Assembly: GCA_965116925.1 (NCBI GenBank)
Contig: OZ220744.1
Span: forward strand, 2,080,001-2,144,000
Direction of reading: 5' to 3'
Source: Candidatus Poribacteria bacterium
GTDB lineage: Bacteria; Poribacteria; WGA-4E; PCPOR2b
Length of the DNA: 64,000 nt
Shown: one piece after another, positions 22,672-24,597 of the stretch
Position numbering within the stretch: position 1 is the stretch's first letter
Layout: each line of letters begins with the position of its first letter
Program-made: the position numbers and the translations under genes
The notes under the pieces: generated by a model
The model's database searches: none
Told to the model about the DNA's origin: nothing
The model's input: only the letters and a program-made list of their open reading frames with translations

Positions 22672-23520
22672 TTATCCCCAACGCTGCTCCGGCGGGTCAA
22701 ATAAGAAACCGTGGAAGAGCTTACGTTGTTCTGGAGAAAGACGACTGTTGTAGAACCCTTTGGAATAGCCCCAATGCTCTTGGGAGGCGATCATCCACGG
22801 ATGTTCATAGGCATAGTAGAGCATGAACCGATACCCCTCCGTTTGGGTAAATGGTCCCGCTGAGTGCCAGAGGGCGTTGTGGAACAGGATTGCTGTCCCC
22901 GCAGGGGCGCAGATCTGCACCGCGCCGGGAAACAGGTCAGGACGCTGCAAATCATCTTGCGGTGGCTCGTATGTTGCTTTGTGGCTCGCAGGAACGACGC
23001 AGAGATTCCCCTGTCCGGGCGATGTCATATCGTTCAAGTAGTAGCCGATCTTGAGTTGGAGAAAGGGAATCGGTGCCCCAAGCCCACGGTATCCCTGATC
23101 GTGACCGTCAATATGCCACCCCATCCCTCGATGTGTTAGGTCGGTTTCATACTCGACGATAGCGTCGGAAGCGTGATGGTGTGGCATTTCATTGAATAGC
23201 CCCTTGACGTAAGGCATCATCGGTGACCAATCCAGCATCTCAAGGAACAGGGGATCGTCATCTAGGATATAGAAGATGCGGGTGCTTTTCTCGCCCTTAA
23301 TATCCGTCTTACCGGTATGGGGAATTTCTTTTTCCTGTTTTTCACGTCGCTGGGCTATCACGCGAAACAACGCCTCTCGGAGTTCGTTAACATGGCTTTC
23401 CGCCAAGAAGTTTTCCAGTACCAGATAGCCGTTATTGTCGAAAAAGAAACGCTCCGATTGTGTTGGCCCTGCTTCGTGTGCTGAGCACGATACCTGTGTT
23501 ACATTGTTTTCTGACATCAT
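22672..23520 (-). CDS. PhyH family Fe(II)/2OG oxygenase
   Basis: GWHIDG, GNLCVVPASH, LWHSA...R; SD GGAGAGG. Confidence 0.9.
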   Translation of the reverse strand: MMSENNVTQVSCSAHEAGPTQSERFFFDNNGYLVLENFLAESHVNELREALFRVIAQRREKQEKEIPHTGKTDIKGEKSTRIFYILDDDPLFLEMLDWSPMMPYVKGLFNEMPHHHASDAIVEYETDLTHRGMGWHIDGHDQGYRGLGAPIPFLQLKIGYYLNDMTSPGQGNLCVVPASHKATYEPPQDDLQRPDLFPGAVQICAPAGTAILFHNALWHSAGPFTQTEGYRFMLYYAYEHPWMIASQEHWGYSKGFYNSRLSPEQRKLFHGFLFDPPEQRWG

Positions 23521-23546
23521 ATAGGAACCTCTCCAATCTTAGTTAT

Positions 23547-23860
23547 GTCAACTACCCCGCCCTGAAGGACGGGGTAGTTGATACCGTCCAACGGGACTTA
23601 CGCTTGGGCAATTATCTTACCCGTGACGCTACCTTGGTGCTTTGAAAAGCCCTAAGAGATAGCGCGGTTATGCGGCTCTGGCTCGTAACTTTACACACCC
23701 GCCACCGCACGGTCACAGCAACCGTTTAGAAGGATTGACCATGTAGCGGTGCTATCATGGTTTCACCTTCCGGGTGACACCTCAGACAAACCACACCTTT
23801 CACATTGAAGTGAGAAGGCAGCGAAAAACGAGCGTTTTTCCTAAGTCGTCGAGTTACGGC
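23547..23860 (-). ncRNA. Candidate large structured RNA (TnpB reRNA/omegaRNA-like) inside the IS200/IS605 element
   Basis: Extended -10 TGaTAGAAT at 23873-65. Long-range stem 23860-52/23690-81 and hairpins at 23823-40, 23796-818, 23763-77, 23738-61, 23627-64, 23606-22 and 23548-81. Several mismatches become G-U pairs only on the minus strand. Confidence 0.6.
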
Positions 23861-23974
23861 ATATATTCTATCATACATTTACCTGAAAAGGGTAGGGCAG
23901 ATTACAAAAACAACAAAAAGGGGGCGCAGTTCCCTCATCGCCCTAACGGGTGAGGCTTCCACTGCGAAGATTTG
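23547..23974 (-). mobile_element. Non-autonomous IS200/IS605-family element (PATE-like), no tnpA/tnpB/iscB ORF
   Basis: Minus strand: target TTCAC (23979-75), then left end CAAATCTTCGCAGTG-GAAG-CCTCACCCGTTAGGGCGATGAGG-GAACTGCG, where GAAG is the guide expected for TCAC under IS608-type pairing rules. Right end CCCCGTCCTTCAGGGCGGGGTAGTTGAC. No TIRs or TSD. Confidence 0.8.
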
Positions 23975-23993
23975 GTGAATTTTGACGTACTCT

Positions 23994-24326
23994 CTAGGAG
24001 GTATTGGCAGTCACGCGGATGACTTGTCCGGGTTGAACTTCTCTTAGAACTTCGTTCACTCTCAACATAGCAGGTTGGATGTCCTCAGTACGATTGCTTC
24101 TCGCAGAAATTAAAATAACACCAATATTGTATTTGCTGAGGTCCTATTGATGTTCGATGCTTCCATCCATTGTCACCAGCACATCAAACGCTGCCTCGGC
24201 TTGCTGGAGTAGTTCGCTATTTCGCTGTCCTTTCCAACCTTGCCGGGAAACAGTCGTCACTTGAAAATCAGCATCAAAATACCGTACTAATCGCCAGTCT
24301 AAGTTTTCGTCAAGTAGTACGCGCAT
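23994..24326 (-). pseudogene. DUF5615 PIN-like toxin (VapC45-like) interrupted by in-frame TAG
   Basis: MRVLLDENL...LVTMDGSIEHQ*DLSKYNIGVILISARSNRTEDI...; TAG at 24146-44 sits where homologues typically have Gln (EHQQNL). The frame continues to TAG at 23996-94. Confidence 0.8.
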
Positions 24327-24597
24327 ATTGCTTTGAGTCCCGGTCTGACCAAGGGTGAGATCCTATTGTTGCTATCAATGCTATTTCTAAAAAGGCGATT
24401 GCCTGTTCACGAGAAACAGAAGGGAAACCTTCAAGGAAGTAGTCAAGACTATCTCCTGCTTTTAAATGGTCAATCAGAGACTTTACAGGGACACGGGTGC
24501 CAGTGAACACCGGCGTTCCCCCGTGAATGTCGGGGTCTTGGTTTATCACTTGCTCTGGCTTCATCATTCTTTTCGCGGCGGAGACTCTCACAGCCAC
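24310..24597 (-). CDS. DUF433 antitoxin (VapB45-like)
   Basis: DPDIHGGTPVFTGTRVPV...GDSLDYFLEGFPSVSREQA; overlaps the PIN gene start. Confidence 0.9.
   Translation of the reverse strand: MAVRVSAAKRMMKPEQVINQDPDIHGGTPVFTGTRVPVKSLIDHLKAGDSLDYFLEGFPSVSREQAIAFLEIALIATIGSHPWSDRDSKQYARTT

What the first reader, a model, noticed from the sequence alone, without database searches (positions are those of the whole stretch)
23528..23979. ORF-less IS200/IS605 element that appears to be a self-expressing guide-RNA cassette
Seen: TTCAC target, a left end with GAAG guide plus hairpin, an extended -10 promoter (TGaTAGAAT), ~310 nt with at least seven hairpins, and a right end ...CAGGGCGGGGTAGTTGAC. G-U pairing favours the minus strand. 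There is no tnpA/tnpB/iscB coding remnant (ATG-CCG-TAA follows the promoter). Established: TnpB uses an RNA from the right end plus flanking DNA as guide and needs the left-end target motif as TAM; ORF-less PATEs and trans-acting omegaRNAs exist. Inference: this copy makes a reRNA with guide ATAACTAAGATTGGAGAGG that would direct a TnpB-like protein encoded elsewhere to the empty site TTCAC|ATAACTAAG.
Basis: partly seen in the sequence, partly recalled or inferred. Interest (0 to 1): 0.85.

Follow-up and report, generated by a model that had tools for sequence, protein, structure and literature searches.

The report
Gene-less transposon carrying a guide-RNA cassette
This 428-base insert is a gene-less miniature of a tnpB-type (IS200/IS605) transposon that keeps both transposon ends, a promoter-like box and a highly folded RNA resembling the guide RNA of its nuclease-bearing relatives; the kind is already known, but this sponge-symbiont family has an extra RNA domain and tends to sit between a gene's ribosome-binding site and its start codon.

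Summary
Window 23547-23974 (read on the minus strand) is a precisely bounded, ORF-less IS200/IS605-type element inserted 3' of TTCAC. Four congeneric genomes carry the empty site TTCAC|ATAACTAAG.

The genome holds 4 such short copies, and 9 full-length 1.3-1.4 kb relatives that share only the ends. These relatives encode an ISDra2-like TnpB.

The interior is a structured RNA, not decayed tnpB:
- 23 of 53 modelled pairs carry compensatory changes.
- 97.6% of cells pair, against 33-41% in slid controls.
- G-U pairs (298) far outnumber A-C (12), which fixes the minus strand.

Its 3' ~190 nt are homologous in sequence and helices to the tnpB 3' end and right end, the omegaRNA region. Its 5' ~125 nt domain has no counterpart in tnpB elements. 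A -10 box (TGATAGAAT) lies 7-8 nt upstream; distant copies carry TTGACA-17-TATTAT.

The concept is in print (Meers et al. 2023), and this scan noted a relative earlier (e1-782713).

New here:
- The family is seen only in Poribacteria records.
- It has the extra 5' domain.
- In 24 of 44 sites it sits antisense between a Shine-Dalgarno box and a start codon.

The parts
23975..23979 (-). Target / presumed TAM: TTCAC, immediately 5' of the left end
   Evidence: Sequence. Across 44 distinct insertion sites of the family the preceding 4-mer is TCAT in 38 and TCAC in 6. Empty sites in G018, G014, G005 and G008 join exactly here.
23905..23974 (-). Left end (LE): CAAATCTTCG, a subterminal hairpin (~23966-23925), then a C/T-rich T-run (terminator-like on this strand)
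   Evidence: It is shared at about 75-80% identity with the LE of the full-length tnpB elements. The hairpin pairs covary, e.g. A1 columns 13-51 are GC 17, CG 13, UG 3 and columns 14-50 are AU 15, GC 15.
23865..23873 (-). Extended -10 promoter box TGATAGAAT; predicted start near 23858-23856
   Evidence: The TG-N-TA(G/A/C)AAT motif is kept at the same alignment columns in most of the 33 copies; S3 and S4 have the weaker TGAGAGAAT. Distant-genus copies have TTGACA-17-TATTAT (11 of 12 matches, plus TG) in the same orientation. The two-hexamer scan of this copy finds none. Function is inferred.
23735..23857 (-). 5' RNA domain (GTAACTCGA..., several covarying hairpins) with no counterpart in tnpB elements
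   Evidence: Covariation is strong: helices 1-5 of the R1 structure hold 17 pairs with changes on both sides. The profile search finds positions 1-128 only in the 4 short copies of the own genome. The tblastn search with TnpB is negative. It is conserved across 4 genera.
23547..23734 (-). omegaRNA-like scaffold: hairpin GGTTGCTGTGACC, the invariant GGTGGCGGG...GTAAAGTTACGAGCC core, closing helix, and the right end
   Evidence: nhmmer matches the last ~150 nt of 8 of the 9 tnpB elements at E = 2.5e-11 to 4e-8; the ninth (F3) matches over its last 57 nt only, E = 2.6e-11. In the S+F alignment the shared helices are 96.5% paired against 39-50% when slid, with S/F compensatory pairs at columns 37-45 and 84-158.
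23605..23666 (-). Variable ~62-nt insertion inside the scaffold (two extra hairpins); absent from copies S3 and S4 and from other short forms
   Evidence: Alignment A1, columns 432-525. Some relatives carry other insertions at the same place.
23547..23602 (-). Right end (RE) with hairpin ACCCCGTCC-TTCA-GGGCGGGGT (23575-23554) and terminus GTAGTTGAC
   Evidence: It is 78-89% identical to the RE of the tnpB elements, best to F3 at 89%. The element boundary is fixed by the empty sites.
23527..23546 (-). Flank that would form the guide (ATAACTAAGATTGGAGAGGT); it contains the Shine-Dalgarno box of the downstream PhyH-family gene
   Evidence: Assigned by position only. Its first 16 nt occur once in the genome, here. 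The only other 12-nt match has no TTCAY in front.
22672..23520 (-). Downstream co-oriented gene (PhyH dioxygenase family); its ATG lies 27 nt beyond the RE and it could be read through from the element's promoter
   Evidence: ORF list; Pfam PF05721, E = 1.8e-13.

Best explanation
Window 23547-23974 is a non-autonomous, ORF-less member of the IS200/IS605 family. It is PATE-like and shares its ends with tnpB-only, ISDra2-like elements. It inserted precisely 3' of TTCAC in the 5' leader of a PhyH-family gene.

Its interior is an RNA gene on the minus strand. An internal extended -10 promoter (23873-23865) starts a ~310-nt folded RNA near 23857. The RNA runs through the right end (23547) into the flank. 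Its 3' ~190 nt are the counterpart of the omegaRNA scaffold that the full-length relatives encode over the 3' end of tnpB and the right end.

The most likely mechanism has three steps:
1. The RNA is loaded in trans by a TnpB made from one of the full-length copies.
2. Its 3' flank-derived guide (ATAACTAAGATTGGAG...) directs that nuclease to the element's own vacated site (TTCAC followed by the guide match).
3. The element is restored there by break-induced recombination. This is the homing and retention role shown for TnpB by Meers et al. 2023.

Shown here:
- element boundaries and past mobility
- absence of coding capacity
- RNA structure with covariation, and the RNA strand
- homology of the 3' half to the tnpB 3' end and RE
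- an intact ISDra2-like tnpB gene with matching ends
- conservation of a promoter at the same place

Inferred: transcription, the RNA's 3' end, TnpB binding, and TAM-dependent cleavage.

The role of the conserved 5' domain is unknown. My guess is stabilisation, or efficient trans-loading, of an RNA that is not made as part of a tnpB message.

The confidence of 0.62 is for the trans-guide mechanism. That this is an ORF-less IS200/IS605 derivative carrying a structured RNA is near certain.
For: **Mobility and precise insertion**
- 4 own copies have unrelated flanks.
- Across 44 distinct sites the element is preceded by TCAT (38) or TCAC (6).
- The S1 site is empty in 4 congeners. The S4 site is empty in G007, checked in an alignment, and in G009 and G010 by coordinates only.

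**No coding remnant**
- The largest internal ORFs are 50 and 59 aa.
- tblastn of 9 TnpB ORFs gives only end matches; the best interior match has E = 1.7.

**Structured RNA**
- 30 of 81 predicted pairs are compensatory.
- 53-pair model: 97.6% of cells pair against 33-41% slid, the covariation score is 0.302 against 0.04-0.085, and 0 of 500 shuffles reach it.
- G-U cells number 298 against 12 A-C cells.

**omegaRNA homology**
- The short-element profile hits the last ~150 nt of 8 of the 9 tnpB elements (E = 2.5e-11 to 4e-8) and the last 57 nt of the ninth (E = 2.6e-11).
- Shared helices carry S/F compensatory changes.
- In ISDra2 the functional scaffold is the last 116 nt (Nakagawa 2023, PMC10097598, passages read).
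- A candidate pseudoknot, UGGC near -96 with G(U/C)UG at -6 to -3, is pairable in all 33 copies.

**Partner nuclease**
- P0001 (407 aa) matches the ISDra2 TnpB structures 8bf8, 8exa and 8h1j at E = 5e-64, and carries the OrfB_IS605, TNB and HTH domains.
- The GIDVGL, VAVENL and DRDHNAAINI motifs are present by eye.

**Promoter**
- The -10 box is kept across copies.
- Copies in other genera have a near-consensus TTGACA-17-TATTAT.

**Guide**
- The guide has no other TAM-adjacent target in the genome, as expected for homing.

**Literature**
- The concept is stated in Meers et al. 2023, preprint 10.1101/2023.03.14.532601 (passages read).
Against: - **No transcript is shown.** The only RNA data are assembled contigs of related copies in metatranscriptomes. 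Contigs give neither strand nor ends and may contain DNA.
- **The S1 promoter is only an extended -10 box.** The two-hexamer scan finds nothing. Copies S3 and S4 have a weaker GAGAAT.
- **No Rfam support.** No family matches at gathering level. At E <= 10 only chance-level hits appear, with HEARO at 14.6 bits.
- **The 5' domain is not explained by the omegaRNA model.** In ISDra2 the 5' region of the omegaRNA is dispensable.
- **Some genomes have the RNA element but no close partner.** G001, G003 and G013 hold the short RNA element but no close homologue of P0001 at E <= 1e-60. Weaker thresholds and other TnpB families were not searched there.
- **No transposase with these ends was found.** None of the 5 Y1-transposase ORFs of the own genome is flanked by these ends.
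- **The pseudoknot candidate rests on one-sided variation only.**
- **There is no terminator after the guide,** so in S1 the RNA may simply run into the PhyH gene.
Confidence: 0.62

Rival explanations
1. The element is mainly a host-gene regulator. The family sits between the Shine-Dalgarno box and the start codon of opposite-strand genes, or, as in S1, in the leader of a co-oriented gene. Insertion and precise excision would then switch translation, and the element's outward RNA, whose flank part is antisense to the ribosome-binding region, would modulate the neighbour. TnpB would be irrelevant or secondary.
For: **Site bias of the short elements**
- In 30 of 44 sites the complement of the TAM is the start codon of an ORF of at least 60 aa.
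- 31 of 44 sites have an SD complement within 20 nt of the RE.
- 24 of 44 sites have both.

**Controls on the own genome**
- TCAT sites outside long ORFs show both features in 10.9% of cases, TTCAT in 13.6% and TTTCAT in 22.9%.

**Direct check**
- The G007 empty site shows the SD box, 5 nt, then ATG, split exactly by S4.

**Comparison with tnpB-bearing relatives**
- They show both features in 4 of 18 sites and 1 of 9.

**Other points**
- 28 of the 44 interrupted ORFs are at least 100 aa long.
- In S1 the cassette promoter points into the PhyH gene 27 nt away.
Against: - S1 itself is not at an SD|ATG junction.
- The conserved omegaRNA-like 3' half and right end are not needed for such a role.
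- No outward promoter toward the interrupted gene was found.
- The sites are not independent: some are orthologous between genomes, e.g. L135 and L181.
- The bias could be target preference plus selection.
- No expression data exist.
Confidence: 0.15
2. The 5' domain is a separate functional RNA (for example a protein-binding or catalytic RNA) that uses the transposon ends only as a vehicle. The omegaRNA-like part would be a leftover needed for transposition of the right end.
For: The 5' ~125 nt have no homology to tnpB elements yet covary strongly. They are kept, with a promoter, in 4 genera. 0 of 80 loci have tnpB upstream.
Against: - No Rfam family, ribozymes and group I introns included, matches even at E <= 10.
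- The most invariant block (GGTGGCGGG..GTAAAGTTACGAGCC) lies in the omegaRNA-homologous half.
- A long-range helix ties the 5' end to the region just before the RE hairpin, which suggests one RNA.
Confidence: 0.1
3. The element is a decaying, functionless deletion derivative. Its apparent structure reflects only recent amplification of one master copy.
For: Many copies in G002 and G004 are close to each other. Only one of the nine full-length copies was tested against solved TnpB structures, and no transposase with these ends was found.
Against: - Copies 72-88% identical, and copies from other genera, keep the helices through compensatory changes.
- The promoter is kept or replaced by a stronger one.
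- The interior is not a deletion product of any tnpB element found.
Confidence: 0.05

Closest known systems
PATE-like ORF-less IS200/IS605 elements that encode omegaRNAs (Meers et al. 2023, preprint 10.1101/2023.03.14.532601, passages read; PATEs of haloarchaea, Dyall-Smith 2011, recalled only)
   Same: It has no ORF and subterminal hairpin ends shared with tnpB elements. It inserts 3' of a short motif without duplication. It has an omegaRNA-like region at the right end that would need TnpB in trans.
   Different: It has its own conserved promoter, and an additional ~125-nt covarying 5' domain absent from the tnpB elements. It shows a strong site bias for the SD|start-codon junction. The core motif was seen only in Candidatus Poribacteria records.
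ISDra2 TnpB-omegaRNA (reRNA) system (Karvelis 2021, PMC8612924, search listing only; Nakagawa 2023, PMC10097598, passages read)
   Same: The partner protein family is the same: P0001 against 8bf8/8exa/8h1j gives E = 5e-64. The scaffold occupies the last ~120-190 nt up to the right end. The 5-nt TAM is of similar type (TTCAY here; TTGAT for ISDra2 is recalled). A candidate pseudoknot joins -6 to -3 with about -96.
   Different: Here the RNA is uncoupled from tnpB. It does not overlap an ORF, has its own promoter, and carries a different 5' part. No biochemical data exist.
Stand-alone, trans-acting omegaRNA loci reported for IscB in Ktedonobacter racemifer (Altae-Tran 2021; recalled, not read here) and HEARO RNA (Rfam RF02033)
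   Same: The idea is the same: guide RNAs encoded apart from the nuclease gene.
   Different: The nuclease family and the RNA are different. HEARO scores 14.6 bits against a gathering score of 83, and only over the RE hairpin on the other strand.
IStrons and IStron-derived PATEs (Zedaveinyte et al. 2023 preprint 10.1101/2023.11.20.567912, passages read)
   Same: An IS200/IS605-family element whose interior is a large structured RNA, with ORF-less derivatives known.
   Different: There is no group I intron signature (no Rfam hit at E <= 10). The conserved internal promoter lies downstream of the LE, which does not fit splicing out of a host transcript. Most copies lie antisense to the interrupted gene.
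IS200 left-end terminator hairpin / leader structures, and the tnpB leader RNA noted earlier in this genome (e1-7797088)
   Same: The LE hairpin followed by a T-run looks like a read-in terminator.
   Different: That feature concerns the LE only. The RNA described here is a separate, promoter-driven RNA toward the RE.

Membership tests
IS200/IS605 family, non-autonomous ORF-less derivative (PATE-like) | Subterminal imperfect palindromes (hairpins) at both ends, no terminal inverted repeats | tested here: met
   The LE and RE hairpins are present. The LE pairs covary; the RE pairs are nearly invariant.
IS200/IS605 family, non-autonomous ORF-less derivative (PATE-like) | Insertion 3' of a specific 4-5 nt motif without target-site duplication; scarless empty site | tested here: met
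   TCAT in 38 and TCAC in 6 of 44 sites. Empty sites in 4 congeners for S1 and in G007 for S4.
IS200/IS605 family, non-autonomous ORF-less derivative (PATE-like) | No protein-coding gene inside | tested here: met
   The largest internal ORFs are 50 and 59 aa. tblastn with TnpB gives a best interior E of 1.7. Frame-breaking indels separate the copies.
IS200/IS605 family, non-autonomous ORF-less derivative (PATE-like) | Ends shared with protein-coding members of the family in the same genome | tested here: met
   9 tnpB-only elements share ~65 nt of the LE and ~55 nt of the RE in the same orientation.
IS200/IS605 family, non-autonomous ORF-less derivative (PATE-like) | A Y1 (HUH) TnpA that recognises these ends | tested here: inconclusive
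   The own genome has 5 Y1_Tnp matches. None is flanked by this LE or RE within 1.5 kb. Activity in trans cannot be tested here.
TnpB omegaRNA (reRNA) | Lies at the 3' end of the element, runs through the RE in the LE-to-RE direction, and takes its guide from the flank | tested here: inconclusive
   Position and strand fit: G-U 298 against A-C 12, and the promoter is oriented toward the RE. The RNA ends are not observed.
TnpB omegaRNA (reRNA) | Homology to the omegaRNA-encoding region of cognate tnpB elements | tested here: met
   nhmmer gives E = 2.5e-11 to 4e-8 over the last ~150 nt of 8 of the 9 elements; the ninth matches over its last 57 nt only. Shared helices are 96.5% paired against 39-50% slid, with S/F compensatory pairs.
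TnpB omegaRNA (reRNA) | Pseudoknot between the last nucleotides before the guide and a site ~100 nt upstream (ISDra2: -5..-3 with -105..-103) | tested here: inconclusive
   The candidate UGGC (about -96) with G(U/C)UG (-6..-3) is pairable in 33 of 33 copies, but it varies on one side only and there are competing candidates.
TnpB omegaRNA (reRNA) | Binds TnpB and directs TAM-dependent DNA cleavage | not testable with these tools
   Needs RIP and interference assays.
HEARO / IscB omegaRNA (Rfam RF02033) | Match to the covariance model at or above the gathering score | tested here: not met
   14.6 bits against 83, on the plus strand over the RE hairpin only. No hit at gathering level.
Group I intron / IStron | Group I intron core recognised by Rfam; splice sites at the element ends | tested here: not met
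   No intron family appears among the matches at E <= 10. The internal promoter lies downstream of the LE.

The most novel reading that the evidence does not exclude
The short elements are more than parasites of TnpB. They would be a Poribacteria-wide family of promoter-driven RNA cassettes that preferentially occupy the gap between a gene's Shine-Dalgarno box and its start codon, antisense to the gene.

In that position the flank-derived 'guide' of their RNA is complementary to the ribosome-binding region of the interrupted gene. Scarless excision would restore the gene. The family would then act as a reversible, transposon-borne switch or riboregulator of host genes. The extra 5' RNA domain would serve this role or recruit a partner other than the known TnpB.
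Probability: 0.12. Interest if true: 0.8.

Novelty: new variant of a known kind. Interest (0 to 1): 0.5.

Why it matters
ORF-less IS200/IS605 elements that carry a guide RNA for a nuclease encoded elsewhere are mentioned in the literature but little characterised.

This family offers a natural, well-sampled case. At least 98 loci carry the core motif, and 33-38 diverged copies were aligned. The guide-RNA scaffold has been uncoupled from tnpB, given its own promoter, and extended by a conserved 5' domain.

If the trans-loading model holds, three things follow:
- It shows how a hyper-parasitic RNA element exploits a transposon nuclease.
- It defines which scaffold parts are really needed, since one F-type hairpin is absent and variable insertions are tolerated.
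- It gives a compact natural design for separately expressed omegaRNAs.

The unexpected bias for the SD|start-codon junction, if confirmed on independent insertions, points to a target preference or a selected effect on host gene expression. I found no paper holding both 'Poribacteria' and 'TnpB' (search), and I ran no literature search for the site bias itself.

Tried and rejected
- **Rfam.** Nothing at gathering level in the whole window. At E <= 10 over 23300-24250 there are only chance-level hits (PK-IAV, snoRNAs, CRISPR repeats, HEARO at 14.6 bits).
- **Decayed tnpB.** Rejected by tblastn.
- **A parent element with the same interior plus tnpB.**
  - The G008 copy with a 1.37-kb insert is a nested, unrelated IS: a 421-aa ORF lies on the other strand.
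  - 0 of 80 motif-bearing loci have tnpB upstream on the same strand. 2 of 80 have a TnpB-like hit downstream on the opposite strand.
- **RNA evidence.**
  - One run search gave 9 runs. Four were laid (X1, X2, X5, X6).
  - Only short conserved pieces of related copies lie on the window (23547-23572, 23679-23732, 23812-23857).
  - One is a 716-nt contig of depth 1651 that skips the S1-specific insert. A 43-nt contig has depth 10038. A contig holding a conserved piece of the neighbouring PhyH gene has depth 62.8.
  - Contigs show neither strand, ends nor expression, so this is not used as evidence.
- **Two-hexamer promoter scan of S1.** 0 sites.
- **Cognate TnpA.** 5 Y1 ORFs, none with these ends.
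- **Hammerhead-like reading of CUGAGG...GAAAC.** Considered by eye and dropped. The core does not fit and Rfam gives no hit.
- **LE as a replacement ribosome-binding site for the interrupted gene.** The idea was an SD-like GGAG just 5' of the LE hairpin on the other strand, with the hairpin bridging to the ATG. I considered it, but the same bases form the terminator-like stem on the element strand, so it was not pursued.
- **First regexes.** Those for element ends failed and were corrected.
Full report
**Observation**

- TTCAC at 23979-23975.
- An element starting CAAATCTTCG at 23974, with a hairpin and a T-run.
- The box TGATAGAAT at 23873-23865.
- About 310 nt without an ORF longer than 59 aa.
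- The terminus ...CAGGGCGGGGTAGTTGAC, ending at 23547.

The flank ATAACTAAGATTGGAGAGG follows. The ATG of a PhyH-family gene lies 27 nt further on.

**It is a mobile element with precise ends**

The window's genome is a single 6.47-Mb contig. It holds four short copies with unrelated flanks:
- S1, this one.
- S2, 87% identical.
- S3 and S4, about 75% identical and 36 nt shorter.

Congeners hold many more. 23 of 61 related genomes have some match, 18 of 19 in the same genus.

In four congeneric genomes (G018, G014, G005, G008) the two flanks of S1 are contiguous and join at ...AAAATTCAC|ATAAC.... This is a scarless empty site, 3' of the pentanucleotide and without duplication, which is the hallmark of IS200/IS605 transposition.

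**Full-length relatives**

Nine elements of 1.3-1.4 kb in the same genome share only about 65 nt of the left end and about 55 nt of the right end with the short copies. Each encodes one long ORF running from LE to RE.

The copy closest to S1 at the right end gives protein P0001 (407 aa). Evidence that it is an ISDra2-like TnpB:
- It has the HTH_OrfB_IS605, OrfB_IS605 and TNB domains.
- It matches the solved ISDra2 TnpB structures at E = 5e-64 over residues 3-370.
- The RuvC-type motifs and the zinc-finger cysteines are visible in the printed sequences. Their assignment is from recall.

The genome has 26 TNB-domain matches in all. It has 5 Y1-transposase matches, none flanked by these ends. P0001-like genes at E <= 1e-60 occur in 15 of 20 genomes of the genus, up to 29 per genome.

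**The interior is RNA, not a decayed gene**

tblastn with the nine TnpB ORFs hits only the shared ends, which the stop-to-stop ORFs read through. The best interior match has E = 1.7.

Structure evidence:
- 33 distinct copies align (A1). RNAalifold predicts 81 pairs, 30 of them with compensatory changes.
- On a 38-copy alignment of the core (A2), the 53-pair structure is 97.6% paired against 33-41% when partners are slid.
- 23 pairs change on both sides against 7-10 in the slid controls. The covariation score is 0.302 against 0.04-0.085. None of 500 shuffles reaches the observed values.
- G-U cells outnumber A-C cells 298 to 12, so the RNA strand is the window's minus strand. This count leans on a structure predicted on that strand.

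Rfam offers no family.

**Two halves**

A profile of the transcribed part finds all four short copies in the own genome. With profile positions ~128-310 only, it also finds the last ~150 nt of eight of the nine tnpB elements (E = 2.5e-11 to 4e-8). The ninth, F3, matches only its last 57 nt.

In a joint alignment of 7 short-form and 19 tnpB-element 3' regions (A5), three features line up and are 96.5% paired against 39-50% slid:
- the first hairpin (GGTTGCTGCGACC against GGCTGCTGTAGCC),
- the closing helix,
- the right-end hairpin.

Two pairs are compensatory between the two groups.

In ISDra2 the functional omegaRNA scaffold is the last 116 nt before the guide. The region further 5' is dispensable, and a pseudoknot joins -5..-3 to -105..-103 (Nakagawa 2023, passages read). 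The short elements keep just this part. A candidate equivalent pseudoknot, UGGC near -96 with G(U/C)UG at -6..-3, is pairable in all 33 copies. It is supported only by one-sided variation.

The 5' ~125 nt (23857-23735) have no counterpart in any tnpB element searched.

**Promoter**

The -10 box with an upstream TG sits 7-8 nt before the conserved 5' motif GTAACTCGA in most copies. In copies from other genera the same place carries TTGACA-17-TATTAT, 11 of 12 matches plus TG, in the right orientation. The S1 copy itself has no recognisable -35. Promoter activity is inferred.

**Distribution**

A covariance model of the 195-nt core (R1) finds the RNA in 43 of 151 genomes of the order, in 4 of 17 genera:

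| Genus | Genomes with the RNA |
|---|---|
| g1 | 12 of 19 |
| g8 | 4 of 38 |
| g12 | 2 of 3 |
| g14 | 24 of 60 |

All examined distant copies are ORF-less.

An exact core motif occurs in 98 stretches of the 185,579-species collection. All 80 listed are records titled Candidatus (or uncultured) Poribacteria MAGs. None of the 80 has tnpB upstream of the RNA. The family is therefore an RNA-only lineage, not a set of recent deletions.

Three genomes (G001, G003, G013) have the RNA element but no close P0001 homologue.

**Mechanism**

A promoter-driven RNA carries a TnpB-type scaffold ending at the right end. Its flank-derived 3' segment would guide a TnpB made elsewhere to the element's own vacated site (TTCAC plus flank), promoting its restoration.

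The 16-nt guide matches nothing else in the genome, and no other 12-nt match has a TAM. This fits homing better than remote targeting.

The idea that PATE-like elements encode omegaRNAs used in trans is stated by Meers et al. 2023 (passages read). An ORF-less PATE with IStron ends is shown by Zedaveinyte et al. 2023 (legend read). No paper in the library holds both 'Poribacteria' and 'TnpB'.

Transcription, RNA ends and TnpB use are not shown. The RNA runs available gave only contigs of related copies.

**An unexpected site bias**

*How the sites were chosen.* I examined 84 loci: 80 motif loci plus the 4 own copies. Both ends could be placed in 48. Four of these were dropped for unclear boundaries (L130, L132, L145, L175), leaving 44 distinct sites.

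*Result for the short elements.*

| Feature | Sites |
|---|---|
| Complement of the TAM is the start codon of an ORF of at least 60 aa on the other strand | 30 of 44 |
| SD complement within the first 20 nt after the RE, mostly at offset 8-10 | 31 of 44 |
| Both | 24 of 44 |

*Controls on the own genome.* The share of sites outside long ORFs that show both features is 10.9% for TCAT, 13.6% for TTCAT and 22.9% for TTTCAT.

*Direct check.* The empty site of S4 in G007 reads, on the gene's strand, SD box, 5 nt, ATG. The element splits it exactly.

*tnpB-bearing relatives.* They show both features in 4 of 18 sites in the genus. Of the 30 loci examined, 8 candidate LE/RE pairs were dropped for unclear boundaries. 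In the own genome the figure is 1 of 9. Two copies are common to both sets.

*Caveats.* The sites are not phylogenetically independent, the gene calls are crude, and S1 itself is not such a case.

My count extends that single case.

**Verdict**

This is a real, well-bounded, ORF-less IS200/IS605 derivative with a conserved promoter and a strongly covarying RNA. The 3' half of that RNA is an omegaRNA homologue. The kind is known. The extra 5' domain, the RNA-only lineage restricted to Poribacteria records, and the SD|start-codon bias make it a new variant.

Noticed in passing
44 insertion sites of the family (loci L110-L189, and own copies S2-S4 at G000:C1:5806550, 4161432 and 4433301): The short elements sit antisense between a Shine-Dalgarno box and the start codon of an intact-looking gene far more often than expected. 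Both features occur in 24 of 44 sites, against 11-23% of control sites. tnpB-bearing relatives show this less (4 of 18 and 1 of 9).
   Followed up: partly
L004:1957-2213 (right flank of copy S4, own genome about 4433750-4434010): Another ~250-nt repeat family lies here, with dozens of copies across the genus. Many matches fall at query 957-1214. I did not examine it.
   Followed up: no
Full-length elements F1-F9 of the own genome (e.g. G000:C1:4081315-4082733): The long tnpB reading frames stay open through the whole omegaRNA region and stop at the TGA inside the terminal ...CTGAC of the right end. The part beyond residue ~370 has no counterpart in the ISDra2 alignment.
   Followed up: no
L030 (G008:C1:3459561-3461364): A copy of the short element is interrupted by a 1.37-kb unrelated insertion sequence. 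It carries a 421-aa ORF on the other strand and is flanked by a short repeated TATCTTTTA-like stretch.
   Followed up: partly
window 24144-24597, minus strand: A DUF433 (95 aa) / DUF5615 (60 aa) gene pair overlaps by 17 nt and lies just upstream of the element. It looks like a small toxin-antitoxin-type pair. The DUF5615 match covers only profile positions 1-55 of 110.
   Followed up: no
A1 columns 560-584 (e.g. L050, L065, L067-L072): A sub-lineage of copies carries an extra hairpin (GTTTCTTAATCCCGAYTTRTCGGGG) inserted inside the right end, just before the RE hairpin. Other copies carry different insertions at A1 columns 223-240, 265-300 and 480-510. These mark positions where the RNA tolerates additions.
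   Followed up: no
G001, G003, G013: These genomes have the short RNA element but no P0001-like TnpB at E <= 1e-60. Either another TnpB family serves them or their copies are relics.
   Followed up: no
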